From contig NW_026889795.1 in assembly GCF_033153115.1 (NCBI RefSeq), forward strand, positions 11,222,001 through 11,286,000: DNA of 64,000 nucleotides, read 5' to 3'. The stretch's first letter is position 1; every line of letters starts with the position of its first letter. Under the pieces are notes generated by a model. It saw nothing but the letters and a program-made list of their open reading frames with translations, had not been told where the DNA came from and ran no database searches. Origin of the DNA: Saccostrea echinata. Its lineage: Eukaryota. Position numbers and translations under genes: made by a program. This document shows positions 10,631 to 51,175 of the stretch, in pieces.

Positions 10631-12249
10631 TTGTGTAGTCTGAAATACGAAATAGCTTCATATATTAAGACAAAATGACTATGCTTAGGTCACAATGGTT
10701 AATGGAAAGTCACCTTGACCTCATCTTACAATGTGTATACACTGATTACCCGGTAGATGTTTATAGGAACATACAAACAAAGTAGGATTCATTGCCTGAT
10801 CTAACAAATGTGTCTGAAAAAAACGTGTACATGAATTACACATAGAAGTGATGTTAAATTCATATGAATGCAAGGTAATTGTACAATAAATTTATAAAAG
10901 CTAGTTATCTTTAATCTTTCCTTCACTGTTACTTGAAGTTTTGCCAGTACATATAACAGTAACATATAACTTTAATAGTTTGACCCTCGATCTTCCAACC
11001 TCTTAACTTATCCAAAGAGGGGGACCAGTGAATAAGTTTGATGACGATCAATCAAAAGATTCTCAAGATACTCATGGCTGTAAGAACCGGGCCGGTTCCC
11101 CCTCCCACCCCCCAATAATTTTGCCAATGTGTAGAATACACTGTACTATAGAAAATATACATGTAGCTACTATATGCTTGTGCCCCCTCAATAATAACGT
11201 CCGATGACCTTTTTTTTTGCTTGTCAAGGAATTTTGGTAGTTGATAGTGCCCCCCAACTGAAAATGTATGGCTGTGCCCCTTCAAAGTGAAATTGCTTCC
11301 TACGGGCCTGATACTGATCAGACCAACTGACTGCTTAAAATGGCATGCCCTCTTTTTTCAAGCAACACAAATATACAAGTCTTTCAATGAGGATTCAAAC
11401 AAACAAATATCATTACATATTTACTTCATATATTTAATTAAACATATATAATGTACAAGTATATACACAAGGCTATTAAAGAATCACGATGAAGACTATA
11501 AACTTAAATAACAAAACACATATTAAGTATGAAAGCCCTAGCACCAACTGTTCAAAAGTTATGGCCAAGGTTAAAGTTTGGCAATTTTTTGTAAAAGTGG
11601 GTCACACTACAAGGTCAAGGTCACGAGGTCAAATTTGGTGGTACCCAAAGAAAGATTTTGTCACAAGGAATACACCTGTGAAATAGGAAATTTTTGATTT
11701 TGGGGGCATAAAGAGTCAAATAAATACAATATTGTTCAAATATATATGAAGTAAAAGTGGTTCATTCTAAATTTCCTCATTATACTAAAAGCTTTAATCA
11801 ATACATTTCAGTGTGTTTTATAGTGGGCCTATAGATAAGGTGTGAAAAGCTTATTTCAACTCTCCCCTCCAAAAAATATTGCTGAGAAATTCAGTTAATT
11901 ATGCACATTCACTTCTTTTATCCTTGATGGAAATGAAAACAGAGCATCCTTGAAGTACAATAAGTATAACATAATACATCAGGTATCAAAAAAATATTGC
12001 TAACATAAAGAGAAAATATCAATGAATGAAATTGATATTCTAAAGTTAAAAAAAAAAGATAAGGGGGCATATATCTATAGTGTTTCTGGATTTTGAACAA
12101 AGTATTTCTTCCTGCTATAAGCCAGTACATGTAACTATCTGACAGTAGAAACTATTACATAACTGGAATTTTTACTGCAGTTGTGACATTACATTGTGAC
12201 ATGATCTACCTTCATACATACATTCATACATATAATGATATTTCATATA

Positions 12250-15200
12250 TCAAGTCAATAAAAGAGACATAAACTCGCTTAGAAAAATGTACAGATGGCG
12301 AGCACAAGTCATGTCAGTTATGTTGACTGGGAAAGGCAAATTATAATGGCTCAATATAAATGAGGCTACGGAAGCAAAATCCTCGTCAATCTCCTTGAAA
12401 TTATTTCTGACAAGTCTCTGTAACTCAGTCACAACGTTTCTCTGAACAGGATGTAAGTAGTTTGAAGCACCTGAAAAATGAGCAAAATAATTAAGATTGT
12501 TGGAGCTAAAACAGTTGTGAAATATTTTATAACACATGCATATGATACATTTTCAATCATTTTTGTGTGCTTTTGGTACATAAAGATGAGAAACCAATGA
12601 ATATACAATGAATACCTGTCATGTATGTGCTTCCTTTTCTATAACATTTAGCAGAGAGTAGCATCTGCTAAATCTTGTATATAGCTAAATGTTTTCATGT
12701 ATATATTTAAAATAAGCATTTCCTGGAATGTGCTAAATTAATTCTACACTTGCATAGTAAACTAGAAGTGTTTGTGAAACACTGATGCCACAGATAATTT
12801 TACTGGTTTAGCTAATAATTTACTCATACCAACAACTTCAGGATTTTGAAACAATACTTCTGGAATTCCATGCAGGGTATCTCCCAGCTTCTGTCTTCGT
12901 ATGGAATGAGTATTCCATTGGTCCATTATATCTTTTAGATCTCTCTTTATCAGTGGAAGATAAACAAATTGTATACAGGATCTAAAAAATGCAGTTGATA
13001 TATGTAAATATACCGGTATTTAGACTGTTAGTAGCAACAACTTTATTTGCAATTCATTTTTTGAAATAATAAGGTATGCAAGTGGCCCTGGACAAATCCT
13101 CTCATCTGAGTCATGCTGTCACATGAATATTCAAAAAGACTCCCTCCCATACTTGATCAATTTCAGTTATAAGGCTATATACCAAGGTACATGTACATGC
13201 TAACATACATGTAGGTGCACTAAGTCAGAGTGTTATTTTAGAAACTATAGTGTTGTTCTTCTAACATTCCCACAATGTAATAAGCGAAAATCAAAATTTC
13301 ATGTTCACATTGAATGTAGCTGTTGCAATGGCTCTTCCATTAATTGTTACTTAATACCCAAAGAATAATAGTTTTGAAATATGAGTCATGTTTGCAGGCA
13401 AGACTGGGAGTTATAAAATGTAAATATAAGCATTAATTGAATCACTATTTTTTAAAAAATGAAGTCTCATAAGTCCAACAGTGTGTGCAAACAAATTTTC
13501 ATAATGTGCTACCACAATTACAAGTTACTCTATTTGTTTACCATGTTTAAACACACTGTTGCAGTTAGGAGACTACATCTTTCAAGAAATAATAAATGAA
13601 TGCTTTAATATAGCAGTTTCTTTTCAAAGCATAAAAAATGCTACCATAATTTCTTTTGTAAGTACAAATGACATAATATTTTTATCCTCCATGTTACAGT
13701 CTATATTTTGTTACCATTTACAGAGATATAGACGACACTTTATTATCAATGACAGGGTATCATTCTTATCCAAGACAAAATAAATAGACATGTACATCTA
13801 ATATTTCTTTTCAAGGAGGTTCATCTGAACTCCTTTTTCATCTATACATACTTATGTAGAGGATTTCCTATTTCCAGCAGTTCTTCATACACCAATCCCT
13901 AATAATAAATTCCCAAGATATATTTTCGTATTTTTTTATATTTACTATGGCCATGCATATTACCATAAACGAAGTACATGCATAGTTAAAGCTGAACACG
14001 CTTCGTAAAAAGAATGTGTCCGACATATTCGATTGGAGTCGTGTTCAGCTTTAACACACTGTAAAATGTAACTTTTGTCAGTAAAATACTTGTTTTCCTA
14101 AATAAATTAAGAGAAACATTTTTGTAATATTTCAGATGTGGCAATAACTTACTTTGAAATGATCCATCCAGAAATCTGCTTTCATTTGCTTTAAAATGCC
14201 CCAAAATCTTTCAATTCTCTACAATTAATGTTTGTAAAAAACGTTATTAAAACTTGGACATATGATTTTCTTTCCAGAAAATGTTATCTGTGTGTGTTTT
14301 GGGGGTGTGGAGCTGTTTAAAACATGTACAATGCTAACCTGATTTGCAGTCGAAGTTCCAAAAGACACTGCACTTGGATCTGTCTTAAGAAATGTTTGGA
14401 ATGTTGCGATGATCCCATTTTCTGTGCCAGTATCAGCTCTTATCTTTTGAGGACAACCTTAAACAGACTATGATGTTATCAATATATGCCTTCCCTTCTA
14501 ATTCATAACAAGTATTTTGAAATTTTGGTGGCTTAATTTCAGAAATCAATTGACATTTCTTGCAGCACACTTGCAATTGTAACTTGTCATTAAACATAGT
14601 ACCAGGTGATTCTGTCACTATACCTTTCATAGTATGAACTGCATTCAGGAAGTATTCTGCTACAACCTCCGGTCTTTTATTAGTCACATCTGCTTCCAGC
14701 CATATCAACTGTCTGGAAAATCTTTCAAAATAAATTGAAAATACGGAAGTGGTACAATCTTAGAAAGACACTATATTTTTCTCTTATATATATGCAAAAT
14801 AAGAAATTAGATTTTATAGTTGAAAGTTTTCCATTTATGTGAATGTTGTTGATCCCATCAATAATTTAAAACAACATCTGCAATACAGCAGATTAAACAA
14901 ATAAATTCAAGTCTTTCTCATGAAAGTAAATATACCAGATTTTTAAAACCCTTAACTTACTAAAAAGTGTGATGGAAGAACATAATGGAAGGATGGAAAG
15001 ACAGAAGTTGGAAAGAGCAAAGTACGGAAGACAGACATGGCAAATGATATATGTTTTGGCCATATTCATGGTGGGGCATAAAAATGTCAGATATGAAATG
15101 CTTCTATTTGAACAAGACTAATCATCGGCAGTGGCAGATTTAGAGGGGGCCTGGGCCCCCCTTTTGTGTCAAAATATCCATAAGATTTAAGAAATCATAT

Positions 15201-18200
15201 TTTTTTGGGTGTGGCTGTGGGCCTCTACCCCAACCCCAAACTGGTCAGCACCCCCCCCCCCCCTTTTCCAAGATACCTGGATCCGCCACTGATTGGCTCT
15301 GCTGCTTTCCTTCAAAAGATTTTTTTTTTATATTTACCTACGGTAATATATTTTCCTATGTAAAACTTTGAATGATCCCCTATTGTTGTCCCACCATAAC
15401 CCTAGAGACAACTAGAGATAACAAGAAATCTGTGAGCCAGTGCTCACTAATAATACCCCTGCTCTGTTGTGAATACACAAGTTCAGTTATGGACAGACAC
15501 AGTAATAATCAGGAAATTGACATCGATTTGTACAAAAATGATTCGCAACATAAAGCATGCCTAAACAATGAGTGAGTTAAAATTTCAAGCATCTGCGATG
15601 AGAAGTTGCTGAGAAAACTGCGACCAAAATTTCTTATGTATTGTACGGACAGATGCACGGATAAACAAGAAGTTGACATCAGATTCGTATAAAAATGAAT
15701 CCCACCACATGGCATGCCTAAACAAAGAGTGTGCTAAATTTTCAAGCAGCTGCAATGAGTAGTTGCTGAGAAAACTGCGACCAAAATTTGTTACGGACAG
15801 ACAGACAGAAGGACAGACACACAAGGGTAAAACAGTATACCCCCCTCTCCTTTGGAATGGGGGTATAATAATTGAAAAAAAAAATGAATATACACTATGT
15901 CCAGAAACTTTTACATCTGGTCCAGTGGTTCTTGAGAGGAAGTTTTTTTTTTTTAATTCACTATATTTTCAACTAATCCTTGTACAAGAGCATGGTTCAT
16001 CTGGAAGAAAAAAAAACCCTCACCCAAGGATGCTTTGTGGCAAGTCTGGTTAAAATTGGTCCAGGGTTCTGAGAAATATGAAATGCTAAATGCATACTGA
16101 CAGACAAGCAGACAGATGGACAGAATTCAATTAGAAAACCACATTTGAGCTTTTAAAAAAATATAATTTAAAATTTTGATGGTTTCTTTTTGTATCTACA
16201 TGTAAGTAAAATATTTGATTTCAGAAATTATTATACTTTTATGAGAAATCCATGTAGAACTAACATTAAATCAAACCACGCCAAAAAATCTTTTTAATTG
16301 AAAAGGAAATGCTTCAAAAACAATATGTCCACAATTATACAGTCCAAAAGAATATTTAAAGTTTTAGACATGAAACTACGAAAATCACATGAAATTACTT
16401 TTTTTTTTTTTTTTAAAAAATAACTTAACATATTGTATTTGAATACATTGATCATTAGTGTGGAATGTTTAAATTAATCAAACAAAACAACAAATCATAC
16501 CCATCAATGCAACCATGAATGCTTATACCATATGGCTTTAGTTTGTCATAACCATCTATAAATGCAGTTTCATGTTTGGAATTACAGTTTAATTTCTGCT
16601 TGCAGGTGTCTCATAAGAAGTTAAGACATTTGATATATTTGTTTAATTTTAAAGCATTTCAAACCTATTTCAAATATCTTTTCTTGACATGACTGACATT
16701 TAGGACAGATATCTACTATAAAATAAATGATATGTTTGTGAAACACTGATGCCCCAATCTCAACCAAGCCTTGGAGTGTCCATCCTTAGAAGCATCATCC
16801 ATGCTAATTTAGTTAAAGTATGGCTAAAATTCACTCATCTGGAAAATATAGGGCAAATCCAGCATTTGAAGCAGAAAGGATGGTGTACATCCCAGCATCA
16901 TCCATGCAAGTTTGATCCAAGTAGGGCTTATAGTAACATGGACATGTATAGGAATGAAGCTGCTTCAAAAACATTAACCTGGTCAATCATCTGAAAAATG
17001 TAAGTAAGATCCAGCATCTGAAGCAAGTCTGGTAGTGTCCATCCCTAGATGCATCATTCCTGCAAGTTTGGTCCAGGTAGGGCTTATAGTTTCCAAATGG
17101 ACTTGCTCCTAACACTTTTACAGGGATGTGACGCTAACACCCACACCAACAGTATAGCATAAGCTCATCTCGACATCATCGGGGTGAGCTAAAAATAAAT
17201 TACACAACCTACTTTTCATCTTATCAAATTGTAAAAGTTACATAAATAAATAAATAACAGGATTGATTTTGACTCTTCATTCATGAACCAAAAGAAGGCA
17301 ATATTACACTTACCCAAATGCCAAACAAAATTTGGACCCTATAAATACACATTGTACAAATAAGTCCCTGACTTTCATATTCTGTACAGCAGGAAATTAG
17401 CTCGTGGAAACAATATTTGCAGAAATAAGAACCCCTCAATATCATATAGTGAATAATTCTTTTAAAAAATGATAAATTGAAATATTACCATTATCTGTGG
17501 TTAGATTCTTTAATTCTCTCTGTGTTTCATTGCAAACATAAAAGCAGTAATTAATAAAAGCAGAGAAACTGATGTAGACCGTCTTGCTAATAATGAAGGT
17601 TTATGGATCAATTTAATCACTTAATACATGTAGTTGTTTGTGATTTTGAAGCTTAATTTAATTAATAATTAATTAATAAATATAATTCTATAACTTAATA
17701 GTCCACCAAAAAGACGTGCAAGGTAATTATCCACGAAACACACAGAGTTAACCTTTACATGTGCTTATTACTTATTCTTATTACCTTTAATCGAGGCACT
17801 TACCTAGTAAAAACAAAGGTTACACATTGATTTAGTTATACTAACAGTTCAACATAACTACTAATAGAAGGGAAAGGAAAAAAAAAAACAAGGGAAAAAA
17901 ATTAAAATCATCAGGATGCGTGACAACGCTTTGACTTCAAATTGGTATTGATCTGATATTTCGTTATATTTAATCGGGTTCAGAAACGACATGACATAAT
18001 ACGCAAGGAAAATACATGCAGTGCTGAATTAATAACATTTCCTTTCTGCAAATTCAAACAACCCTGATTTACTAGAAATTTAAAAAATTGCGATTTTAAC
18101 CTGCTGTACAGTACATGTACAAGGTATATTTTACTTTTATTCTTGCATAATTATTTTTCAAGCTTTGAAGTGTTGAATTTTGTCACATTTATGAAATTAA

Positions 18201-20478
18201 TACATTAATAAATACTGAGATGATCAATGTTTCATAATTTTTCTTTCAGTCTTCGGTCTATACCTTACTAAAGTATTGCCTTCTTCTCAGTCTTCTCTGC
18301 TTCCTTCTCTTTATCCCATCTTCATCCAAAAGACGAACTATATCTCTTGCTATGGACCTGTATCATTAAACATTTATTTCATTTAATGTATCAAAATTTT
18401 ACAATTATTGTCTATTTTTGAGGGCAAATATTATAACTTTTAAGCCCAAGAGAACCACCACCAACCAAGGCTCAGCCATGCAGTCTTAACAATGGTTTTT
18501 TAAGGGTGAAATTTTTCAATACAACTCTCATTGAAAGACCAAAATATTTGTTATACCCGGGTATTTTACTGAATGGTTCATGAAATATAATTATACATGC
18601 TTATAGATTCCATGCAGTCAGCAATTTTTGGGAACATGACTCATCATTTTTAATGCTAACTGTTGCTACATTCTGTTGCATTGGATGGGCATGGTTTAAT
18701 CAGTCATTGGAATATAGTGTTTTTATCAAATGTTTCTCAATGAATCAGATTCAACTAATTTACATGAAAGTATAACATCAAAATATTTGCATGTTTGGAT
18801 GTATTTAATCATGGATGGAGGAATGGACTGACTTTGATTATATACTTACCTGGTAATATTCAGCTGGTGTTTCATTTTTATAATTCTTCTTAGACTTTCA
18901 GCACCTGAACATCCATTCAGTATTTCTTTCTACAGAATATTGTAAATTGCATGTATAAGGTTTGCTCTATATAACTTTATGTGTATTTTAATTAATATAT
19001 GCAAGTTTTAGCATAATTTTCCGAATTTAATAGTACACTTTTTCTCCTTAAATACATGTACATGTGTAATGTATGTAATTTTAAATTTTGGCAACATTGA
19101 TGATTTAGAGCTGAAAAGACATCAGGGATATGAATTCCACTAAAATATGTCAAATTCCACACATCTTTCATACATATACATCCAACAAATAAGTTAATCA
19201 TTGTGTTCTAAACTTTCATTGAAGAATTACCGGGTACTTAATAACAGTTAAAAGAACAGAAATATTTAACATGCACGTGCACCTTTATATTTATGAATTT
19301 TCTAAGAAATAAAATTATTACCTGTGCAATATCAAATATTTCATCTAGAGCAATGTCTGCAAGCCTCCTTTTCAAACCAAGTCTAGGTAGAACTTTTCTT
19401 GTTAGGCAATTATAACTGCAAAATTTTTAATCACATCGAAGCATCATCATTGAATGACAATTTATGTATTTGATTAAAAGTCATGATACATTACTAAGAC
19501 TTCCAAAAATATTTTTTTTTAAATTTTGTATTATAATACCTTATGTCACAGTTATGGTTTCTCTGGATCAAATAATGGATTAAACGGTAGTTAAAACCCT
19601 TATAAAACAATTCTTTTATCTTTTCAAGTATATCTAAAAGAGAAAAAGAAACCTTTTAGCATAAAGTACTGATCATTTTATTATATAATCTACAGTTCAG
19701 CTTATACAAGAACATGATCTAGAGGATTTTCCCGATTTTCCCCAGAATAATGAAGTTTAACTGTATATCAAAACAAAACATTGCAAATGTCCATTATTCA
19801 TAAGATATACACTGCTGATCAGACTAAAGACAATGCTGAAAAGGAACAGCTTATTCTGATAAAGCAAAAAACAGCAGAACAGTAATTTTGAGCCAGGCTC
19901 ATTGCTCTACTCTTAGAGCAATAATTGCCTTTTTGTCAGGGTGTTCAACTGGATATGCTGCTTCCTCACTGCCAAATAAAATTTACAAGTTAAAAAAAAA
20001 GTATGTATATGCTCAGACGCTTTTGAGACAATACAACACTAAAATTAAACAAAGTAAAGTAAACTGATAAATTTTCTTAACAAACAAAATTAATGGTAAT
20101 GTACTTTGGTTTCTCACATGTGCCATGATGTACTACGATTTATTAATATGGTTTTAAAAGATGCATGTATGCAAAAAGTTTTCATCCAGTCCCCCTCAGT
20201 GTCTGTAGCACATACTAAAAATAAAGGTAGCATAACCAGGATAACACTAATGCAGGGAGCACGCGACCTGTGGTACACTTTGATGCAGAACTTCCCACTG
20301 AGCACTCATCTGAGCATAAACGTTTGTCCTTGCTGCATCAATGTTTATTTTTGTACATGGTGTAAGACCCCAGAACGATCCATGTGATAAATTCAATGTT
20401 CACTATTCTGTAAATGAGCTCTGCTCTCTATACTTCTGAGTACTTTGATTTTAAATATCACTTACCTTGTCTAATCAT
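12250..20478 (-). CDS. 13-exon DDE transposase, 385 aa, IS3/IS481-like integrase core with a probable helical N-terminal DNA-binding region (IS3EU type)
   Basis: Exons: 20478-20466, 19633-19540, 19415-19322, 18929-18850, 18357-18264, 17338-17314, 16555-16501, 14721-14624, 14457-14339, 14218-14153, 13898-13852, 12981-12830, 12470-12250. All introns are GT-AG and phase-compatible; total 1158 nt with no internal stop. Motifs: RRLRRRQYFSKGPNFVWHLDGYDKLKPYGISIHGCIDGFSRQLIWL, KIRADTGTENG, GTSTANQRIERFW, QWNTHSIR, HGIPEVLFQNPE. The 13-nt first coding exon is the least certain. Confidence 0.9.
15128..15291. mobile_element. Short hAT-like MITE; similar G/C-run MITEs at ~2983-3143 and ~11073-11310
   Basis: CAGTGGCAGATT ... 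GGATCCGCCACTG inverted ends with internal C/G runs. Confidence 0.45.
15420..15870 (+). mobile_element. HINE-like element in transposase intron 7 (mirror copy ~39735-40175)
   Basis: ACAAGAAATCTGTGAGCC start, two ~157-bp units, GACA microsatellite, terminal ATACCCCC..GGGGGTAT hairpin. Confidence 0.65.
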
Positions 20479-21940
20479 CTTCACTTCAGCTTATAATCTT
20501 TGTAAAACTACAGATAAGGAATGCAATACATATAACACCCAGTTCACTTCAACAGTATATAACTAAATATACGTTTACAATGTTAATGATAAGAAACTCC
20601 TTATACCATATGCTTTACTCTCAGGGTCATTCAGGGTTGCAAATAATCATTAGCCCACTCTCAAAATTTAAGTGTTTTGTCTGAAGGTAAGGGTTGATAT
20701 TTTCCTGGAAAATTCACTAGCACAAGGGTTACTGATCATTAAAAATTTCTAGCCCAAACCTCAAACTAACTAGCCCAACAATTTTTTAATGCAAAATAAA
20801 TTAAAACACAACAAAAGTAAATGTTTCAAATGCTTTGGTAACAGAAACAAATTAAAACTAGTTTTCAGTCAAAAGAAACCAGTTTACATACATAGAAAAC
20901 AGAAATAAAGTCACAAGAATATTTTCTGGTCTGCTAGTCTGGCAGACTATAGTTACATTTAAATTAGCTAGCCCTTGAAGTCTTAAAACAATTAGCCCCA
21001 GACTTTGGCTACCAATTTCAACCCCTGTTGAAGGCTTCAAACTCTTCAGGATGTTATTGCCCACATAGCAAGTAAAAATCTTATTGGAACTTCAAAACAT
21101 ACTGAATCGTGTCATCATTACAAATATCTTAGATTACAAAAACCAAGTGGAAATTTCAAACAAGAGGTATCTAACACCACAGAAAAACAATAGGGCATAG
21201 CTTTTTGGATTATGATAAAAGAGGATCCAAAACTTTTTCTAATCGAAATTGTGGAAATTAATTAAAAATGGAATTTGATTTGAAGTAAAGCAGTATGCAT
21301 AAAGAGTTTGTTTCTCTTTTCTTTATAATTGTTTTCAACCTTTTATTTACATTAATGTGGGCCCCAAAGCAACAATACAGGCTAGTAAAACTCGTGAAGT
21401 TAGGATCCTACATGACTTCTATACTTTCAGACAAGCAATATCAGTCTTAAAAGACAAGTGTAAAAAGTCATACCTTGTGGGCAATGACACCTTTGTGAGG
21501 AGCAACCGTGAGAGAATTAAATCACGCGCATGAAAGAAATTCACGCGCACATGTCTGAATTTCAAAAGTGCGAGGGAAAAATTCGCGAAAAAGAATAAAT
21601 ATACACATGCAACTTATTTGGAACTCACCAGGATTTTGACAAAAAGGTTGCATAATGTGTGATAAAAAATTTATCAAATCATATTCCCTCTTGCATAGTC
21701 AGCTTAAGAGTTACACAGAGCTCATTTTGTTATATTCCGAATACATACAAAACCTAGTCTTTAAATCAAATTTACTTACTTTTGCATGTTGCAAAGACAT
21801 TCTTTCAATACTTTTGCAATATGTACATCAACAAGAAAGTTTTTCTGTCAAAATTCACATTTTGTCATTAGAAAAGCACAAATAATGAACTTGTACTAAA
21901 TAACTAACTACTTAACATGCTAAACTAGGCTAGGGTTTCA

Positions 21941-22910
21941 TTCCCTGACGAGAAAATTCGAACTAGGGGCCGTTGCAGAAGAAAGTTAGGTTTGAAAGTT
22001 CTACACCAGTATACCTTAACATTTAAGTTTGAAAGTTCTGTTCAGTTTAACATTTAAGCTTAAAACATTGCTGGTGTGGCGTTTACTTCTTACCGTGTTT
22101 GTCCTTGCTTGTAACTTTTGTTGTCGAAGACTGAGATCACTGTCACTTCAACAGTAAAATCAACTGAACCCACATGTAAGGATCTCTCTCACATAGACGC
22201 TTGGTATCCGTCACGCTAGAAATAATATTTCTTCACGCTCAAGATAATATTTCCTTCACGCTTCAAATAATGTGTGCAAATCTCTCTCACATTAACGCTT
22301 GTAGCCGTCACGCTAGAAATAATATTTCTCCACGCTCAAGATAATATTTCCTTCACGCTTCAAATAATGTGTAGTCTGTCACAATAATAATCGTGTCTCC
22401 CAGCGTTTCAACATAATTATTGTTTCAACAAGGGAGAGTTCTCGTTCCTGTCACTAGAAAAGAAGTTATCTTTCCCGATGAGAAATAAAAATAAAGTTTC
22501 TACGAACAATTAAGGCGCACATTATTATTGTTGCAAATATGGTGTGTGGTTTTTTTTTTTTTAACGTGCATACATTTTTATTTCCATGAAAATGGCTTCT
22601 TTTTTTTTCTTTTTTTTTAAATTTTCAAACAGTAGTTGTTACATGTATGCCTTCTTATAAATCGTTGAAGTAAACGTAATACAGCTGTAATATGAATCTA
22701 TAATCTTGGTGCTAAATAAAAAATAATGTACACATCGACCGACAAGATGATAATTATTGCTGTTGGCAAGATTATAGTTGTGAAACAAAACATCAGAGGA
22801 TAAAATTATTATTATTATTGGGCTAAATAAAGATAATTTGTACACACATTATGGTAGTATAGTATGGAAACGTGATAATTGTAATTTTTGCGGGGAAATA
22901 TAATAATATG

Positions 22911-22960
<50 letters not shown>

Positions 22961-23163
22961 ATTTTTTTTTTTATTAATTTTTGGTACAATTATAAATATA
23001 TAGGAATAATAATAATGTGGAGGTACCCAAATTATTATTGTTGCAGAAAAATAATAATGTTGTAAAAAAGCAAGTTTTTTGTTTTTGTATGAGATCATTA
23101 TTTTTGGTATAATTATATAGGAAAAAATAATAATAATGTGGGGGTACCCTACGGCTTTCCATA
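21941..23163. repeat. Complete ~1.2-kb TIR of copy 1
   Basis: Matches 61660-62729 in direct orientation from TCCCTGACGAGAAAATTCGAA to CTTTCCATA, and matches 23164-24243 inverted. Confidence 0.88.
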
Positions 23164-23227
23164 CCTCCACATTATTATTATTCCTATATTCTTATAATTA
23201 TACCACAAATTAATAAAAAAAAATAAT

Positions 23228-23273
<46 letters not shown>

Positions 23274-24243
23274 ATATTATTATATTTCCCCGCAAAAATT
23301 ACAATTATCACGTTTCCATACTATACTTCCATAATATGTGTACAAATTATCTTTATTTAGCCCAATAATAATAATAATTTTATCCTCTGATGTTTTGTTT
23401 CACAACTATAATCTTGCCAACAGCAATAATTATCATCTTGTCGGTCGATGTGTACATTATTTTTTATTTAGCACCAAGATTATAGATTCATATTACAGCT
23501 GTATTACGTTTACTTCAACGATTTATAAGAAGGCATACATGTAACAACTACTGTTTGAAAATTTAAAAAAAAAGAAAAAAAAAAGAAGCCATTTTCATGG
23601 AAATAAAAATGTATGCACGTTAAAAAAAAAAAACCCACACACCATATTTGCAACAATAATAATGTGCGCCTTAATTGTTCGTAGAAACTTTATTTTTATT
23701 TCTCATCGGGAAAGATAACTTCTTTTCTAGTGACAGGAACGAGAACTCTCCTTTGTTGAAACAATAATTATGTTGAAACGCTGGGAGACACGATTATTAT
23801 TGTGACAGACTACACATTATTTGAAGCGTGAAGGAAATATTATCTTGAGCGTGGAGAAATATTATTTCTAGCGTGACGGCTACAAGCGTTAATGTGAGAG
23901 AGATTTGCACACATTATTTGAAGCGTGAAGGAAATATTATCTTGAGCGTGAAGAAATATTATTTCTAGCGTGACGGATACCAAGCGTCTATGTGAGAGAG
24001 ATCCTTACATGTGGGTTCAGTTGATTTTACTGTTGAAGTGACAGTGATCTCAGTCTTCGACAACAAAAGTTACAAGCAAGGACAAACACGGTAAGAAGTA
24101 AACGCCACACCAGCAATGTTTTAAGCTTAAATGTTAAACTGAACAGAACTTTCAAACTTAAATGTTAAGGTATACTGGTGTAGAACTTTCAAACCTAACT
24201 TTCTTCTGCAACGGCCCCTAGTTCGAATTTTCTCGTCAGGGAA
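23164..24243. repeat. Left TIR of copy 2, missing the outer ~140 bp
   Basis: Reverse complement of 21941-23022; begins CCTCCACATTATTATTATTCCTATA. Confidence 0.85.
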
Positions 24244-26171
24244 TGAAACCCTAGCCTAGTTTAGCATGTTAAGTAGTTAGTTATTTAGTACAAGTTCATT
24301 ATTTGTGCTTTTCTAATGACAAAATGTGAATTTTGACAGAAAAACTTTCTTGTTGATGTACATATTGCAAAAGTATTGAAAGAATGTCTTTGCAACATGC
24401 AAAAGTAAGTAAATTTGATTTAAAGACTAGGTTTTGTATGTATTCGGAATATAACAAAATGAGCTCTGTGTAACTCTTAAGCTGACTATGCAAGAGGGAA
24501 TATGATTTGATAAATTTTTTATCACACATTATGCAACCTTTTTGTCAAAATCCTGGTGAGTTCCAAATAAGTTGCATGTGTATATTTATTCTTTTTCGCG
24601 AATTTTTCCCTCGCACTTTTGAAATTCAGACATGTGCGCGTGAATTTCTTTCATGCGCGTGATTTAATTCTCTCACGGTTGCTCCTCACAAAGGTGTCAT
24701 TGTCCACAAGGTATGACTTTTTACACTTGTCTTTTAAGACTGATATTGCTTGTCTGAAAGTATAGAAGTCATGTAGGATCCTAACTTCACGAGTTTTACT
24801 AGCCTGTATTGTTGCTTTGGGGCCCACATTAATGTAAATAAAAGGTTGAAAACAATTATAAAGAAAAGAGAAACAAACTCTTTATGCATACTGCTTTACT
24901 TCAAATCAAATTCCATTTTTAATTAATTTCCACAATTTCGATTAGAAAAAGTTTTGGATCCTCTTTTATCATAATCCAAAAAGCTATGCCCTATTGTTTT
25001 TCTGTGGTGTTAGATACCTCTTGTTTGAAATTTCCACTTGGTTTTTGTAATCTAAGATATTTGTAATGATGACACGATTCAGTATGTCTTGAAGTTCCAA
25101 TAAGATTTTTACTTGCTATGTGGGCAATAACATCCTGAAGAGTTTGAAGCCTTCAGCAGGGGTTGAAATTGGTAGCCAAAGTCTGGGGCTAATTGTTTTA
25201 AGACTTCAAGGGCTACCTAATTTAAATGTAACTATAGTCTGCCAGACTAGCAGACCAGAAAATATTCTTGTGACTTTATTTCTGTTTTCTATGTATGTAA
25301 ACTGGTTTCTTTTGACTGAAAACTAGTTAAATTTGTTTCTGTTACCGAAGCATTTGAAACTTTTACTTTTGTTGTGTTTTAATTTATTTTGCATTAAAAA
25401 ATTGTTGGGCTAATAAGTTTGAGGTTTGGGCTACACAGCAAAATGTGCCACGTACGTATCACATACGTTAAACGTATGTGATACATACGTGACTTTACGT
25501 ACGTATCACATGAAAAAAGCACCACGTACGTTAAACATACGTTTTCACACGTATGAATATCATGCGTGACACGTACGTTACACATACGTATTGACTACCA
25601 TACGTTACACACGTTGCACACATACGTTATTCATACGGTTCTTGTATGAATAACGTACGTGCAACGTGTGTGTAGCGTACGTTTTGAGAAACATGCGTTT
25701 AACATGATTTGTATACACTGCTCATATGATAAATGTTTAAGTACCATACATCTGTCAAACCATGGTTAAACATATGTTTTGAACATTCTTTTTCACACAT
25801 TGTAAACATATGTGAAACAAAAATAATGTGCAATTAAAATATTCATTTCATGCATTTGACATAATTTTCTTCAAGGGCTTATTTTCTTTTCATCTGTTGA
25901 ATGATCCACATTTTGAAGGTACATATCTGGATATCCTTTACCTCAAATTTCCTGATCCTAATTGCTCTTTAGGCAATCACAACAAAAGACATATTCATAT
26001 TTAAGCCAAATTTAATGTTGAGATTTTAACATCAATTCATTCTTCTGCAATTCCCTTTCATCTGTAAAGAAAAAGAAAATATTAAATGAATTTGCACAGT
26101 TTTTTTCTGAACATTATTATTTTCCACATATAACTCCACATATAACTCTTGGTCGATTCCCTTTAGAACTA

Positions 26172-26997
26172 AACAAGAACTGTCCAATTTGGATAAATAC
26201 CCCCCACTGAGTTTTTCAGAGAAGATGCCAAGTCACTAATACTAGTATTTGAGGATCTAAAAGGTATTCACAATTTGTTTAAACATTAAGAGTTTTCAAG
26301 TATTTCTCTGTTGGAAAGTATGGATGCATTATTTATCCATTTTTTCTACAGTACCTGACTATAGGTCAGGATCATGACACATGTACCCTCAGGTCATAAA
26401 CAATCTTTGTGTGAAGTGGATACTCCCAACATCCAAAATTATTCTCCATAGGAAAGATACAGACTGAACACGAATTATGAACTTTTTCTGTAAGTGACCT
26501 TGAACTTGTCCAAATGACCTTGGGTCAAGGTCATGACACACCATCAGGTCATAAACAATCTTTGTGTAAGATGGGAACTCTCCAAGTTTATCCATAAGAA
26601 AGATATGGACCAGACACGTATTATGATTTTTTTCTGTCAGTGACCTTGAACTTGCCCAAATGACCTTGGGTCAAGGTGATGACACACCCTCAGGCCATAA
26701 GCAATATTTGTGCAAAATGGGAGCTTGCCAAGTTTATCCATAAGAAATATATGGACTGGACACAAATTATGAACTTTTTCTTCCTGTGACCTTGAACTTG
26801 CCCAAATGACCTTGGCCATGGGTCAGGGTCATGACACACCCTCAGGTCATGAATAATCTTTGTGTGAAATAGTAGATTCTAATGTTCCTCCGTAAGAAAT
26901 ATATGGACCAGACATGTTTGCACAGACAGACAAACAGACAGATGAACAAGGTGATTCCTACATATTCCCCTAAACTTTATTTGCAGGGGGATAAATA
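26172..26997 (+). mobile_element. HINE-like element with 146-bp internal tandem repeats
   Basis: TGACCTTGAACTTG at 26495, 26641 and 26787; ACAG microsatellite and a terminal CCCCT..AGGGG hairpin. Confidence 0.65.
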
Positions 26998-27680
26998 TAG
27001 TGTCGAATAACTACTACCTTATAATTCTCTACATGACAAATTTAAAATAGAAGCATTGTGAGTGAACTCAGAAAACAAAACTTGTTCATCATAGTCATGA
27101 ACTTAGTTTGTTTGCTTTAAACTCCTGGCCAGGAGTATTATTTGGATTTTCAATGAATCATTGCATTTTCACTATATGATCAATAAAGCACTGAATTACT
27201 TACCCTGAGGCCATAAATTCCATAATTTTAGTAGAAGACTCAATGCTCATTACAATCATGCTAACAGTTTGCTTGATGTCCAGATTTAAAGATTAATGCA
27301 TTAATTTTGATGGTTTTATATAGCTCCATCCCCTAGGCCCCAGGGGGAGCAGGGACCATGAAATTTGCTATTTTTGTTCCCATTCACCCACATATGCAGC
27401 ATTTATTTATGCCAAAAGTGGTCAATATGAGTTCAACAGTTTTAGAGAAACTGAAAATGTTCAAATTTTACAAGACAATGCACAGTGAATGATGATGGAC
27501 AAAAACAGATAGCAATAAGTCATGACTGACTCAGGTTACTTTTAAATTAGTTTTAAAAAACATTTTTTTGTGATTATGTCAGCTCAGGTGAGCTAATATA
27601 AAATATTGCTTATCACTGATATAAATGACAACAGTTAAATTTTAGACATAACCATGTGTCTGACAATTCTATATAATAAT

Positions 27681-30318
27681 ACAAGAGGCCCACGGGCCTT
27701 ATAGGTCACCAGAGTATCGTGTAACAACTTTCCAACAATTGAATTTGGTTTGTATTTTGCACCAGAGGCCATGTAATTCACAATTTTGAAAGAGGCACTA
27801 TTGCTCATCATAACTATACAGTTAGCATGCTTACTTTGATTACTTAATATCCAGAGGCAGAGCAGAGGAAGAAGGAAGATCAGGATCAACAAAATAATTA
27901 GTCTAGTATTCACTATCAACTCAGAAATTGAGTTCTAATCTGTCCCCCACTTAACACTATCACCATGCAGCCTATTAACAAACTATTAGTACTTCTGTAC
28001 TATTTTTAAACCCATATTAAGATCTCTAGCATTGACCTCTCTTATGGTCTTTGAAGAACTTTTAATAAGATAAGTTATTTTTGTCTCATTTTTATCTATC
28101 TATTACTTACAGGTCTATCTGATTATTAAAACTAAGAAAGTACTTTTTTAATTATACGATAAACATTCTTGCATAATTATCTTATTCTATTAACCTTTCA
28201 AATACATTATTTACAGTGATTAATTATCAAAGGTAAATGGTAAAGGGGAATAACTTCTCTCAGTAGTATACAAATTAATAGAGCCCTGCCCAGGACCAGA
28301 ATGCTTAGACGAATGGTCCAGATGTTTAAAAATCTGGTAGAAATACGCTTACTCATATCATTTAAACTTTTACTCAGTTTGCTTCCGATATGCCCAGAAG
28401 CAGAGAAGAATTTCACAGGTACAATGCATTTTCACTACAGATTCAACAAAGCCTTACCCTAACACCAGAACCCAAGACCAAGGGTCAAGAAAATTACAAA
28501 TTTGGAAGAGTTACCCTCATCATCAATACTATGGACTTCAAAGAATTAACACTTTTCCACTATATTATCAAAAGCCCCCCCCCCCCTCGTTATGCCAGAA
28601 CCCCTGACCCTAGAACCACAAGATTTAAAAATTCTGTTCGAAGCTCCCATTTTCATCATAGCTAAGCAATTTATTTATCAGCTCGACACTAAGGAGCCGA
28701 CAGGATTAATTAATGATTAATTAATAGAATTAATGCTTTTTCACTATATAATCAATAGAGCCCCCCCCCCTCTCCTCAAGAACCCCAAAAAATGAGGCGA
28801 TATATTTAAAAATTTTGGAAGAGGAATCCGTGTCTATCATAATCATGCACTTAGTTTGTTTAAATAATCTCCAGAAGCAGAGAAGAAGATTTTCAAAGAA
28901 TCAATGCATTTTCACTATATAATCAATAGAGCACCGCCCTAACACCAGAACCCCTGACCCTGGGGCCATGAAATTCACAATTTTGGAAAAGGCATCCTTA
29001 TGCATCATAACCATGCACTTAGTTTGTTTAAATAATACCCAGGAGCAGAGAAGAAGATTTTCAAAGAATGAAAGCATTTTCACTATATAATCAATAGAGC
29101 CCCGCCCTAACACCAGAACCCCTGACCCTGGGGCCATGAAATTCACAATTTTGGAAAAGGCATCCTTATGCATCATAACCATGCACTTAGTTTGTTTAAA
29201 TAATACCCAGGAGCAGAGGAGAAGATTTTCAAAGAATTAATGCATTTTCACTATATAGTCAATAGAGCCCCGCCCTAACACCAGAACCCTGCCCCTGGGG
29301 CCATGAAATTCACAATTTTGGAAGAGGCACTCTTGCTCATCCTAACTATGTACTTAGTTACTGAATTTAATACCCAGGAGCAGAGAAGAAGATTTTTCAA
29401 AGAATCAATGCATTTTCACTATATAATCAATAGAGCCCCGCCCTAACACCAGAACCCCTGATCCAGGGGCCATGAAATTCACAATTTTGGAAGAGGCACT
29501 CTTGTTCATCCTAACTATGTTCTTAGTTACTGAATTTGATACCCAGGAGCAGAGAAGAAGATTTTCAATGAATAAATGCATTTTCACTATATAATCAATA
29601 GAGCCCCGCCCTTACACCAGAATCCCTGCCCCTGGGGCCATGAATTTCACAATTTTAGAAGAGGCACTCTTACTCATCATAACTATATACTTACTTAGTT
29701 TATTTAATACCCAGGAGCAGAGAAGAAGATTTTCAAAGAATTAATGCATTTTCACTATATAATCAATAGAGCCCCGCCCTAACACCAGAATCCCAGACCC
29801 TGGGGCCATGAATTTCACAATTTTAGAAGAGGGACTCTTACTCATCATAACTATATACTTAGTTAGTTTATTTAATACCCAGGAGCAGAGAAGAAGATTT
29901 TCAAAGAAATAATGCACTTTCACTATATGATCTATATAGCCCCGCCCTAGCACCAGAACCCCTGACCCTGGGGCCATGAATTTCACAATTTTGGTAGAGG
30001 ACTTAATGCTCATTACAATCATGCCAACAGTTTGACTGCTTGATGTCCAGGAGTAAAGAAGAAGATTTTTAAAGATTGCATTAATTTTGGTGGTTTTAGC
30101 CCCACCCCTCAGGCCCCAGGGGGGCAGGGACCATGAAATTCACAATTTTTGTTCCCCTTCACCCATAGATACTATATGCCAAATTTGGTTGAAATTGGTT
30201 GAGCGGTTCCAGAGAAGAAGCTATAAATGTTCAAAAGTTTGCGACCGACGAACGACGTACGACGACGGACGAAAACGGATAGCAATAGGTCACCTGAGTT
30301 TACTCAGGTGACCTAAAA
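27681..30318 (+). mobile_element. Non-autonomous Helitron/Helentron-derived element (HINE, CvA/pearl-like) carrying a satellite array
   Basis: Starts ACAAGAGGCCCACGGGCC and ends with a GACG microsatellite plus the hairpin AGGTCACCTGAGT-TT-ACTCAGGTGACCT and an A-run. Confidence 0.75.
28730..30075. repeat. 168-bp tandem satellite, ~8 units (oyster Cg170-like)
   Basis: AATGCATTTTCACTAT-type anchor at 28903, 29071, 29239, 29407, 29575, 29743 and 29911, with degenerate units upstream. Confidence 0.9.
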
Positions 30319-33300
30319 ACTTACCCTCAGCATAAATCTTTCAAAGTTTGGCATGGACCTATTTGTTTTTGTGTCTGTTCGAAGTATATACATGTACTTC
30401 TTGTCCTTGAGGTAAAAAAAAAATATGTTAAAAAAAACTGCATTTCAGACTTGTAAAGCAAAACAAACAAGATGAAAAATTACTTATTTTACTGATAACA
30501 TTTAACATTTTCTTCTCTTGATTGAAATGTATAATGCACATCATTACCATGATTATATGATATGTAATTGCAAGTCTAAAAGCAATGGGATCAGAAAATG
30601 ATTTCTTTCTTAAGAGTATTACCATAATGCTAGTAAAACTATCAGAATCTGTTTTGAAGTCCAGTCATGGCATTTAGGTGTTTACATAGGAGATGCATTT
30701 GAGCTTCAGCTACCATCCTGGAGTGTACATTTAAAATCACATAAAAAATCACAATCTCAAAATATATTATTAGTATTCATAAGGATGAAAAAGGCAAAGA
30801 CATCTGAAAAATAAGTGTTACACCCTATTATTGCCCTAAAAGATATTAATTTCCTCTACATGCTCTATGAAGAAATACATGGGGTGGATGAAACTTTTCA
30901 ATCAAGGGTTTTATTTGCATCTTATTGGTAGGCTAAAAAATATATTTACAGTGTTGATTCACTCCTGGGCTGTGGTGCTTTGTCAACATTTTCTTAATTA
31001 TTTGGTAAACTAAGTCTACATTGTTATACACTGAAATAAAAGAAACAAACCCATTAGTTTACATGCAACACAATCTGAAATATAAAGTAATTAAATAACT
31101 GTTGATGTTATGTATTCCTCACCGTTATAGGGCAGTGGTTCTGGAGAAGAAGTCGAAAATGTGAAAAGTTTACAGACAGACGGACAGCTAGACAGACAGA
31201 CTACAGACAAAATGTGATCAGAAAAGCTCGCTTAAGCTTTCAGCTCAGGTGAGCTAAAAACAGATAGCAACAGGTCATGACTGACTCAGGTTACCTAATT
31301 AGTTAAAACATTTTTTTTTTTTTGTGATTACATATAAGTCAGCTCAGGTGCAAATATTGCTTATCACAGATGTAAATACAACAGTAAAATTTTAGACATA
31401 ACCATATGTCTGACAATTAAATTCTATATAATACATGTAGATTTAATAATAGAACTTACCCTCAGCATAAATCTTTCATAGCTTGGCATGGACCTATATG
31501 TTTTTGTGTCTGTTCGAAGTGTATACTTTTTGTCCTTGAGGTAAAAAAAATTGCATTTCAGACTTGTAAAGCAAAACAAACAAGATGAAAAATTACTTAT
31601 TTTACTGATAACATTTAACATTTTCTCCTCTTGTGATTGAAATGTAATGCACATCATTACATGTTATCTGTAATTGCAATAAGAGTATTACCATAATGCT
31701 GGTTAAACTTTCAGAATCTGTTTTTGAAGTCCAGACTTGGCATTTAGGTGTTTACATAGGAGATGTCAGAGCTTCAGCCACCATCCTGGGGTGTACATTT
31801 AAAATCACATAAAAAAATCACAATCTCATTAAAATACATTATTTTTATTCATAAGGACTGTATGAAAAAGACATCTGAAAAATAAGTGTTACACCCTAAT
31901 TGCCCTAAAAGATAATTTATATTTCCTCTACATGTTTTGTAAAGAAATACATATGGGTGGGTGGAACTTTTTCCATCAAAGGTTTTATTTGCATCTTATT
32001 GATAGGCTAAAAATAATCAGTTACAATAAATATTTTTTATAGGCCTAACAGAATGTTTTAAACTTCACCTGAATTTTGATATAGTGTGCCAGTGTTGATT
32101 CACACCTGGGCTGGGGTGCTGACCAAGACAGCTGACTGCGTCAATATTTTCTTACCTAGTTTACATTACGTTATACACTAAAATAAAAGAAACACGTTCG
32201 TTAGTTTACATGCAACACAGTCTGAAATATAAAGTAATTAAATAACTGTTGATGTTGTATATTCCTCACCGTTATCCTAGCCTAACTCCAGACTGTAGTG
32301 CAGACGTCAGACTTCTTACCAGTGACGTCACCGGTAACGTAAATAATAATTGGAGGTGAAAATTCCGGAACGTATAATTTAAATATTTTATTGTTATACG
32401 GACGCTACCTACTGCATAATTATCTAATATATATTTATGTGAATTCCATTTGAGTTTGTTGTGAAATTATCGTGATTTTCTTTCTTTTTTTTTTTTTTAA
32501 TTCAGCTTTTGCTCCTGAATTCGGAATGATTATATCTACCGATGATCGAGTTCAATTTTATGTGCCTCTACCGATATCCGATATACATATTACGAGATTA
32601 GTGTACTTGTAGTTGTATGTAGACTATGTTTTTACTGCTCTAAGAGTAAACTATACACCAATGCGAACTGATTACTCCATGACAGACATGCAAGTGGACG
32701 TAAGGTAAACAATGTGAAATAAATTGGAACATTAAAGACGCAAAACACGCACAACAAGTCAACAACGCACACACCTGTGAGCTTTCAGAGGTGATTGGGT
32801 TTAACACTGTTTAATCATAGATCATGATATGATATTATTTTTTGAAAAAAAAAGTTGAATCTTTAAAACATATTACAGTATAATCATTAAAATCCAGACA
32901 ACTTATGATCTAGAGTCCCGTTTTAAGAGGGATTTTATACTTAGACCAAGTTGGTTGCAATACTCTGTTTCATGAATTACACATTTACAGGTTATTGATT
33001 GTTAACGAGGTTCGCTCCTGAGCTTTTGAGCAGATTTTTATCTTAACCTATATTTCAAAAATTCTGCATAATGTTTTAATTCTTACAATAAATTTGGATT
33101 CTACAATGCCAATTTAACTATATTCAGTTAAAACTCCATGATTAAATTCAATACCAAAAGCATTGAATGAGGAACTATATTTTGTGGCGGAAGGTTTTCT
33201 TTAGAAGAAAATGATCATTTTTTCTCTTTCGAAGTATTAAAAGTATGTTAAGTTTGGATTCCTATTTTTACATACAGTCTGCACATATAGTTATTTTGTG

Positions 33301-35152
33301 CAGTGGGTTGTTTTATACTGGTCCTAAATTATCTATTAAATAAACTGTCATGAATTCTATCATCATATTTGATAAATATAGCAAATACATTGTGAAAATG
33401 AAGGAAAAAAAAATAGCCCTAATTTAAGCTTAAAATTAGCACTATTTTGGGAATATCTAAAAATTAACATCACAGACCCCAACTTTTAATATTCTTTTAT
33501 GAATATATACTATATTTTAACCATTCTTCTTAAATTCAGTAAAATGTCATTACTTTTAAATGATTTTTTTGCTTGTTAAATTTTTAATGCCAGAAAAAAA
33601 TGAAAATGTTTGAGTGCAAAAAGGTCAAATAATTGAACATGCGGAGTAATTTGAAAATTTCTTCGTTGTCACAAATTTTAGTGTGTCTATTTAAGATGAA
33701 ATAAGACTGTTTTTGTTCCCATAATTTATTTGAACAAAAATATTGGAGGAAAAACTTTAAAAATAGATGTATGTGTAAGACGTATTTACAGTGCAAAAAG
33801 GTCAAACTAAATGCTCTGTAGTGCCAAAAGAAGCGCATTGACCCCCATTTTTTGTTTTGATTTTTAATAAAGCTATGTGTATAAATTCTAAAAATATACT
33901 TGGTAAAAAATTCTCATTACTTTTGATGGCAGGATCCAACCTCCTTAAACATTATCTTGATTAGTTCTCCAAATTCACTTTGAACTATTAAGTTAAAAAA
34001 AGTATTTGGTCTGAGTACTTTTGAACAAAAAGTTCCTGTGTATTTGAAAATGTCACCAATTTAAGAATATTATAATCCCAGCAACAATAAAACTTTTAGG
34101 GATTTTTTTCACTTACTGACTAAAATTCAATACTAATTTTCCTAATTAATTAAACGAAATTGAAATTAAAAAAAATAAAAAGGGATTGAATTTAATTATA
34201 GTTGACCTACATTTATTGTACATGTATCTAAAAGTACCATTAATATAGAAAATATACAGCCTTCTCAAACACAGCTAGTTTTTCACACACATGTAAAACA
34301 ATTTTTATTAACATACATGTAACGTAGCTGATAATATACTTGTCATTAATGTTCATGTAATATGTGGTTTATAATACATGTAAACCGTGCATATATTAAC
34401 GTATGTGTAACGTGTGGTTGATAATAAATGTAAACCATGTGTGTGAAATATGTGTAATGTATGGTTTATAATACACATATAAACCATGCGTTTATTAACG
34501 CATGTGTAACATATGGTTGACAATACATATGTAAACCACGCGTTCATTAACGTACGTTTAACGTGTGGTTGACAATACACATGTAAACCATGCATTTATA
34601 AACGTACGTGTAACGTATGGTAGCACATACCATATGTTACACGTACGTGAAACGTACGTAACACATACGTGTATTCCAACCGCACGTTTCACGTACGTTA
34701 TGTGAAACGTATGTTGTCACATGCATGTTATCCATACGTTGTACCACGTACGTGAAACGTGCGGTTGGAATACACATATGTGTTACGTATGTTTCACATA
34801 TGTGTAACATATGGTATGTGCTATCATACGTTACACGTACGTGGCACAATTAGCTGTGTAGTTAGTTTGAGCTTTGGGCTAGATATTTTTAATGATCAGT
34901 AACCGCTGTGCTAGTGAATTTTCCAGGAAAATATCAACCCTTACCTTCAGACAAAACACTTAAATTTTGAGAGTGGGCTAATAATTATTTGCAACCCTGA
35001 ATGACCCTGAGAGTAAAGCATATGGTATAAGAAGTTTCTTATCATTAACATTGTAAATGTATATTTAGTTATATACTGTTGAAGTGAACTGGGTGTTATA
35101 TGTATTGCATTCCTTATTTGTAGTTTTACAAAGATTATAAGCTGAAGTGAAG

Positions 35153-51099: not shown

Positions 51100-51175
<76 letters not shown>

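What the first reader, a model, noticed from the sequence alone, without database searches (positions are those of the whole stretch)
22990..23200. Head-to-head junction exactly at an element end: self-insertion or fold-back
Seen: copy 1 ends complete (..CTTTCCATA, 23163) and abuts CCTCCACATT.., a point ~140 bp inside copy 2's left TIR. This creates a giant palindrome with a ~137-bp spacer. Hypothesis A: copy 1 transposed into the TIR of copy 2 (target CCTCCA). Hypothesis B: the 3' end TACC(T) folded back on (A)GGTA at ~23021-23024 and primed an inverted duplication. Both complete ends are followed by CCT (CCTCCA, CCTGAG), which is either target preference or the true terminus.
Basis: partly seen in the sequence, partly recalled or inferred. 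Interest (0 to 1): 0.82.

Follow-up and report, generated by a model that had tools for sequence, protein, structure and literature searches.

The report
IS3EU transposon targets its own ends
A 31.6-kb DNA transposon sits, with a clean target duplication, 140 bases inside the end repeat of another copy of its family, and all 8 such confirmed nested insertions in this genome lie in end repeats and none in element interiors, likely because transposase bound to resident ends captures incoming copies.

Summary
The junction is real, and hypothesis A is confirmed. Upstream DNA shows the predicted layout: outer end, 140 bp of TIR, the target, then the inner end. The target duplication is 7 bp (CCTCCAC), not 6, and the outer copy has its own 6-bp duplication. 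Fold-back is rejected. CCT is not part of the terminus.

The element is an IS3EU/GingerRoot DNA transposon: TATGG..CCATA ends, 6-bp duplications, a PF24764 DDE transposase, plus a BTB-BACK-PHR gene and a second unnamed gene. The inner copy is not a daughter of its host (1.84% apart, against 1.16% to its closest relative).

Across the genome, 33 of 135 ends abut family TIR sequence. All 8 nested insertions with a duplication on both sides lie at TIR positions 141-536, none in interiors, and often join different subfamilies. Only 1 of 29 foreign insertions lies that near an end (Fisher p about 2e-7). Targeting of family ends in trans is well supported; protein-guided capture is inferred. No reads spanning the junction were found. 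The scan noted a nested IS3EU pair in another genome (e1-7880974, unchecked).

The parts
1..23163 (.). Inner (inserted) IS3EU copy, 31,622 bp in all. It begins 8.46 kb upstream of the window at G000:C46:11213542, has TIRs of about 1.17 kb (about 82% alike), and is inverted relative to its host.
23024..23163 (.). Terminal 140 bp of the inner copy's right TIR, which forms the spacer of the palindrome; ends ..CCATA
23164..23170 (+). Right copy of the 7-bp target-site duplication (CCTCCAC), at TIR positions 141-147 of the host. The left copy lies at G000:C46:11213535-11213541.
23164..62729 (.). Remainder of the outer (host) copy, 39.7 kb in all. Its first 147 bp lie upstream at G000:C46:11213395-11213541.
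62730..62735 (+). 6-bp target-site duplication of the outer copy; its partner lies just before G000:C46:11213395
20750..23023 (+). Left arm of the near-perfect palindrome (partner 23164-25433). The tract at about 21100-22840 has only 3 substitutions in 1,740 bp.
25434..34858 (.). 9.4-kb foreign TIR element (CACAG..CTGTG, TA on both sides; CACTA/EnSpm-like by recalled signature) in the host only; contains 168-bp and 146-bp tandem arrays
12253..19634 (-). Transposase gene of the inner copy: 12 exon matches covering residues 5-385 of P0001 (residue 68 unmatched), no stops, 4 substitutions (one beside the second catalytic D); inferred triad D134-D193-E227
35986..42135 (+). Transposase gene of the host copy; the last two exons (residues 263-385) are missing through a 1.58-kb deletion
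9362..10630 (-). Intronless BTB-BACK-PHR gene (422 aa), open in the inner copy. The host's version at 43801-45069 (+) has an in-frame stop.
47215..59417 (-). Second multi-exon gene of the host copy (P0009-P0011-like, acidic, no Pfam hit; UBX-like C-terminus as a lead only). Counterpart in the inner copy at 682-7209 (+) and upstream.

Best explanation
The junction is one side of a transposase-type insertion, with a 7-bp target duplication, of one IS3EU copy into the terminal repeat of a different copy, and it is one of at least 8 such insertions in this genome, likely because transposase (or the element's second protein) bound to a resident end captures incoming copies. Shown: both duplications; the non-sister relationship; sites confined to TIR positions 141-536; cross-subfamily cases; no interior hits. 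Inferred: cut-and-paste movement; protein tethering to the subterminal repeats; later gene conversion between the arms nearest the centre; collapse of some doubled ends, giving one-sided head-to-head dimers; unequal crossover that expanded one nested pair to a three-unit array.
For:: the predicted upstream layout; 8 of 8 nested pairs have exact duplications (six of 6 bp, two of 7 bp) made of TIR sequence; no end's flank maps to an element interior apart from internal TIR copies, an AT repeat and three partial 81-90% matches judged to be dispersed repeats; the terminal 550 bp make up 6.2% of 672 kb of whole elements (p about 2e-10 for 8 of 8) and 0.008% of the genome; 1 of 29 foreign insertions lies within 550 bp of an end (Fisher p 2.3e-7); the inserted copy is from another lineage or size class at C46, C43, C58, C40 (right end), C36 and C1; among pairs tested, only C40 (left end) is a sister (0.29%). 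The sites differ in sequence. Three further insertions lie 643-1,191 bp outside another end.
Against: No protein-DNA binding or de novo insertion was tested. All counts come from one assembly and 8 two-sided events. At C43:372469 the host's remainder is missing. At C36 the site is 1,184 bp from the surviving end (about 345 in TIR coordinates, with foreign DNA between). Only ends with 0-2 mismatches to the terminal motif were found. The foreign-insertion control cannot see insertions in the outermost 150 bp or so, and one more foreign insertion sits in the C36 host TIR (p 9e-7 if counted). No reads span the junction. The arm homogenisation was not seen at the two other head-to-head dimers tested.
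Confidence: 0.62

Rival explanations
1. The insertions are real, but the TIR is favoured for its DNA or chromatin properties (A/T tracts, bendable or nucleosome-poor DNA) that suit this transposase, without tethering by bound protein.
For: The TIRs are rich in poly-A/T and short repeats. The P element has a sequence-driven hotspot inside its own TIR (PMC2577343, passages).
Against: Other elements do not favour these TIRs (1 of 29). The genome is A+T-rich throughout. The sites are many and unlike each other, and three insertions lie just outside ends in unrelated DNA.
Confidence: 0.2
2. Homology-guided pairing, or repair at resident ends nicked by transposase, brings donor and resident ends together; sequence exchange at insertion would then also explain the near-identical arms.
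For: The arms share 9 private variants at 20952-22651 and have 3 substitutions in 1,740 bp where 32 are expected. All subfamilies share the terminal 100-170 bp.
Against: The clean 6-7-bp duplications point to ordinary strand transfer. Cross-subfamily insertions land at 206-345, mostly beyond or outside the best-shared sequence. The C3 and C51 dimers show no exchange.
Confidence: 0.1
3. Local hopping or survival bias: copies land near their donor, or interior insertions are lost by recombination, so only TIR insertions remain.
For: At C40 the inserted copy is a sister of its host (0.29%). The IS3EU-related Styx hops within 150 kb (PMC10853768, passages).
Against: The inner copy here is not the host's sister. 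Small subfamilies share only ends with the 32-kb class, so they could not recombine out of its interior; yet 3 two-sided cases lie in its TIRs and none in the 10 interiors held.
Confidence: 0.05
4. Fold-back priming or an assembly mis-join made the palindrome.
For: A 5-bp self-complementary match exists at the centre. No spanning reads were found.
Against: There are two left ends with a two-sided 7-bp duplication 31.6 kb apart, and an outer 6-bp duplication 71 kb apart. The arms differ by 1.84% and by 9.4-kb and 1.6-kb indels. The same layout recurs at other loci.
Confidence: 0.03

Closest known systems
IS3EU / GingerRoot superfamily (Kojima and Bao 2023, PMC10045372; Cerbin et al. 2019, PMC6839031; Kojima 2025, PMC12730594; passages read)
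   Same: TA..TA ends (fungal families TAYGG..CCRTA; here TATGG..CCATA), 6-bp duplications with occasional 7-bp ones, an integrase-like DDE transposase, passenger genes.
   Different: Here 32 kb (63 kb with nested retroelements), against 3.9-12.9 kb and 100-150-bp TIRs reported for GingerRoot; TIRs of 1-3 kb; a transposase gene of at least 12 exons. The GingerRoot passages report a GC-rich, gene-poor target preference and no targeting of own ends.
Styx of Zymoseptoria (PMC10853768, passages)
   Same: IS3EU-related, 6-bp duplication, clustered insertions, tandem-inverted copies, solo TIRs.
   Different: Clustering is within 150 kb of a parental copy; insertion into TIRs does not appear in the passages read.
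Drosophila P element self-insertion and tandem dimers (PMC2577343, PMC5932611; passages)
   Same: Insertion into its own TIR, head-to-head dimers, dimers that can expand into arrays.
   Different: P uses one sequence-defined hotspot (bp 19-26) or re-uses the same genomic target. Here the sites spread over 141-536 bp in different sequences and join different subfamilies.
IS911 (IS3 family) targeted insertion next to IS ends (titles seen in the reference lists of PMC2909936 and PMC7780238; the papers were not held; mechanism recalled)
   Same: A related transposase lineage, with insertion directed to resident ends by bound transposase.
   Different: As recalled, IS911 inserts a few bases outside a 36-bp end through a circle intermediate. 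Here insertion is hundreds of bases inside long TIRs, and no circle junction was seen.
MITE self-insertion (rice Castaway, Gaijin; review PMC5172404, passages) and maize double Ds (recalled; search found no paper)
   Same: A DNA transposon nested in its own family, more often than chance.
   Different: MITEs are too short to separate end from interior. Double Ds, as recalled, is a single allele with an internal insertion.

Membership tests
IS3EU/GingerRoot | TA..TA termini (TAYGG..CCRTA in fungal families) | tested here: met
   TATGG..CCATA; 128 exact-pattern ends; definition
IS3EU/GingerRoot | 6-bp target-site duplication, occasionally 7 | tested here: met
   Of 36 non-nested pairs, 27 are exact (one in an AT repeat; three paired across contigs by me), 3 have one mismatch and 6 have none. 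Of 8 nested pairs, six are 6 bp and two are 7 bp.
IS3EU/GingerRoot | Integrase-like DDE transposase | tested here: met
   P0001 scores PF24764 rva_4 at E 3.5e-38 and maps exon by exon to both copies. The catalytic residues are inferred from recalled motifs. The fold model was unusable.
IS3EU/GingerRoot | Placement in the IS3EU/GingerRoot clade of a transposase tree | not tested
   No Repbase reference sequences were available
IS3EU/GingerRoot | Second protein (two-protein layout, as stated for the Styx ancestor in PMC10853768) | tested here: inconclusive
   A second multi-exon gene is in all 10 large copies and in the C77 subfamily; homology to other IS3EU second proteins was not shown
Polinton/Maverick | AG termini plus DNA polymerase and virion genes | tested here: not met
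   The ends begin TA. Only three genes were recognised, none a polymerase. The 6-bp duplication and size alone are shared.
Fold-back (replication) inverted duplication | One outer end, sister arms, no target duplication | tested here: not met
IS3-type targeted insertion (IS911) | Transposase-dependent capture of a resident end | not testable with these tools
   Needs a transposition or binding assay

The most novel reading that the evidence does not exclude
Animal IS3EU transposons have a built-in homing mode, the reverse of target immunity. Their long, repeat-rich TIRs act as landing pads for any family member, so 11-22% of insertions go into 0.008% of the genome. This gives harmless landing sites and builds Russian-doll ends, 10-30-kb palindromes and tandem arrays. 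It could be a eukaryotic survival of IS3-family end-targeted insertion, and a basis for tools that aim large cargo at a pre-placed TIR.
Probability: 0.4. Interest if true: 0.8.

Novelty: new variant of a known kind. Interest (0 to 1): 0.6.

Why it matters
IS3EU is a little-studied superfamily whose target choice is nearly undescribed. A strong preference for family TIRs acting in trans would be a distinct targeting rule that can be tested with a plasmid assay, and an apparently complete transposase gene is at hand. It also gives a route from single insertions to large palindromes and tandem arrays, and explains why such loci mimic fold-back events or assembly errors.

Tried and rejected
Reads. 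The run search gave 21 rows, none holding more than 6% of the words. Four runs were laid; they cover only the terminal 50-150 bp and a short stretch at 23584-23685, and none spans the junction. They appear to be other organisms and say nothing against the junction.

Structure. The AlphaFold model of the transposase (6 sequences) had pLDDT 41 and was not used. There was no PDB sequence match. Single-exon Pfam scans of the transposase were blank; 3 of 17 ORFs hit, all from the BTB gene. The atlas hit for the second protein (UBX, 0.83) is below the tool's 0.9 line.

Ideas rejected. CCT as terminus or target motif. Inner copy as daughter of the host. Arm homogenisation as a general feature: absent at C3 and C51. 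TA before both duplications at this locus is not general. Solo TIRs as products of an end attacking its own TIR: a few fit (C15, C19), others keep part of the far end and look like repair deletions, so this stays open.

Left open. Base composition of target sites was not computed. PMC2546779, PMC126149 and PMC1462012 were not held. Repbase Reports and paper supplements were not seen and may already describe this family.

Full report
OBSERVATION. The window is G000:C46:11222001-11286000 of a 923-Mb eukaryotic assembly. The nearest transposase relatives carry oyster names, so the host is probably an oyster. An element end (..CTTTCCATA) closes at 23163 and is followed directly by TIR sequence read inwards. 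The arms are 98.9% alike for 2.27 kb. A 9.4-kb insertion then breaks the right arm, and the inverted match resumes.

THE DECISIVE TEST. Upstream there are two left ends 147 bp apart, at C46:11213395 and 11213542. The inner end is preceded by CCTCCAC, the same 7 bp that follow 23163. The outer end is preceded by the same 6 bp that follow 62729. So a 31,622-bp copy lies, inverted, at positions 141-147 of the TIR of a 39.7-kb copy. Fold-back predicted a single end and is refuted. CCT is not part of the end: flanks vary across 135 ends, and related ends in 4 unrelated runs stop at 23162-23166.

IDENTITY. An exon at 41137-41256 matched P0001 at 100%; P0001 scores Pfam PF24764 at E 3.5e-38. It maps as 12 stop-free exon matches in the inner copy (4 substitutions; residues 1-4 and 68 unmatched) and 10 in the host, which has lost the last two. 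Ends and duplication length match IS3EU/GingerRoot: TA..TA and usually 6 bp (PMC10045372, passages), 7 bp in 5 of 77 GingerRoots (PMC6839031, passages), and TAYGG..CCRTA in rust fungi (PMC12730594, passages). The element also carries an intronless BTB-BACK-PHR gene and a second multi-exon gene with no Pfam hit. Classes of about 11 kb and 13 kb share the ends but show no transposase beyond a weak fragment. A second transposase-bearing subfamily with the same three genes lies at C77:1216818-1280305.

NOT A COPY OF ITS HOST. Over 23,320 gap-masked columns of 10 large copies, inner and host differ by 1.84%. The inner copy is 1.16-1.17% from C58 and C42, and the host is the most divergent copy. Near the centre the arms converge: 3 substitutions in about 1,740 bp (window 21100-22840) where 32 are expected (p 7e-11), with 9 shared private variants at 20952-22651. 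The innermost 200 bp differ again. I read this as later arm-to-arm conversion. It was not seen at the C3 and C51 dimers, and polishing cannot be excluded.

FAMILY CENSUS. Exact patterns found 128 ends (reversed-pattern control 0). All were fetched, giving 135 ends at up to 2 mismatches, and one more later. 33 of the 135 abut family TIR sequence (my curation, counted). Eight insertions have a duplication on both sides, at these TIR positions: C46 141-147 (7 bp), C40 155-160, C40 206-211, C58 284-289, C43 323-328 (host remainder missing), C36 about 342-347 (1,184 bp physically), C43 438-443 and C1 530-536 (7 bp). Ten further distinct one-sided sites lie at about 16, 23, 49, 173, 255, 265, 285, 362, 474 and 511. 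Repeats of one junction were counted once, and C22 was merged with C58; the three shortest may be repair slips. About 62 insertions lie outside the family (35 paired loci, 27 distinct single flanks). So 8 of 70 to 18 of 80 events hit about 0.008% of the genome. Three more lie 643, 773 and 1,191 bp outside another end.

CONTROLS. All 135 flanks were compared with 38 whole elements and with 7 further stretches. The interior matches were internal TIR copies, an AT repeat and three partial matches of 81-90%, which I judged dispersed repeats and did not count. The terminal 550 bp are 6.2% of those 38 elements (p about 2e-10 for 8 of 8). Foreign insertions in the same elements number 29 distinct, after dropping three widely shared indels that are probably deletions in the reference copy. 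One of the 29 lies within 550 bp of an end (Fisher p 2.3e-7, or 9e-7 with the C36 case added). This control misses the outermost 150 bp or so.

ACTING IN TRANS. A 14.5-kb element sits in a 32-kb host (C58), an 18-kb one in a 32-kb host (C40), and a 10-kb one in a large-class remnant (C36). The C1 pair is 91-94% alike. The C43 pair is 0.91% apart while the host's sister is 0.21% away. Among pairs tested, only C40's left insertion is a sister (0.29%).

CONSEQUENCES SEEN. C40 holds a three-unit tandem array with an identical junction repeated (units 2 and 3 differ by 0.06%). C43 has three nested left ends. C3 and C51 are head-to-head dimers of non-sister copies (0.75% and 4.5% apart) with a single outer end, which is what this locus would become if the two tandem left ends collapsed. 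At C9 a doubled end is flanked by a new 6-bp duplication, so the composite itself moved.

MECHANISM. Shown: transposase-type insertion into family TIRs at many unlike sites, in both orientations, across subfamilies. Inferred: the outer 500 bp of the TIRs carry many short repeats that likely bind transposase, and protein on a resident end would hold an incoming complex and deliver it to nearby DNA. Tiny deletion derivatives with intact duplications suggest excision and repair, hence cut-and-paste. Rivals are DNA or chromatin preference (0.2), homology- or repair-guided pairing (0.1), local hopping or survival bias (0.05) and artefact (0.03).

KNOWN PARALLELS. P elements have a hotspot at bp 19-26 of their own TIR and form dimers (PMC2577343, PMC5932611; passages). 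Some MITEs self-insert (PMC5172404; passages). Styx hops locally and forms solo TIRs and tandem-inverted copies (PMC10853768; passages). IS911 targeted insertion was seen only as reference titles and is otherwise recalled. PMC11934779 (passages) calls IS3EU structure and function largely unexplored; PMC9604107 (passages) added nothing. No listing or passage described end targeting by IS3EU in these searches: IS3EU (62 papers, 30 listed), IS3EU + nested (2, listing only), GingerRoot (13). Repbase Reports, subscription journals and supplements were not seen.

VERDICT. The junction is real, hypothesis A holds, and the element is a member of IS3EU/GingerRoot. Nesting as such is known. The strength, end-restriction and trans nature of the targeting appear to be new for this superfamily. 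It rests on one assembly and 8 firm events, without reads or assay. New variant of a known kind; interest 0.6.

Noticed in passing
window 25434-34858: 9.4-kb TIR element with CACAG..CTGTG ends and TA on both sides (CACTA/EnSpm-like by recall), holding 168-bp and 146-bp tandem arrays; present only in the host copy.
   Followed up: partly
G000:C42:2692588-2725129 and C58:6081373-6128501: Two near-identical copies (0.06%) whose target duplications pair across contigs, left with left and right with right: a reciprocal exchange between copies, or an assembly swap. C75:1887400 and C77:1280305 pair across contigs too.
   Followed up: partly
G000:C77:1216818-1280305: 63-kb second subfamily with the same ends and the same three genes (transposase exons 45-81% identical to P0001), carrying long ORFs that look like a Gypsy-type and a LINE-type retroelement by eye.
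   Followed up: partly
window 9362-10630 (-) and 43801-45069 (+): Intronless BTB-BACK-PHR gene carried by both transposase-bearing subfamilies; a possible captured retrocopy kept as cargo.
   Followed up: partly
G000:C29:15954995-15964146: Tandem array of about six 1,534-bp units (99% alike) derived from the element's subterminal region, next to a one-sided nested junction.
   Followed up: no
G000:C4:7414177, C15:8087259, C19:4264448, C42:3999460, C56:3955914: Solo TIR pieces of 22-416 bp with the 6-bp duplication on both sides; some join the flank with no trace of the far end.
   Followed up: partly
G000:C1:13713921-13730143 and C58:6081662-6096206: Two elements that each sit in a host TIR are 99.5% identical to each other, so one recently active lineage hit TIRs twice on different contigs.
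   Followed up: partly
G000:C5:2625035, C36:5263717, C36:5614388: The same 103-bp end fragment with identical sequence on both sides at three places, apparently carried inside another repeat.
   Followed up: no
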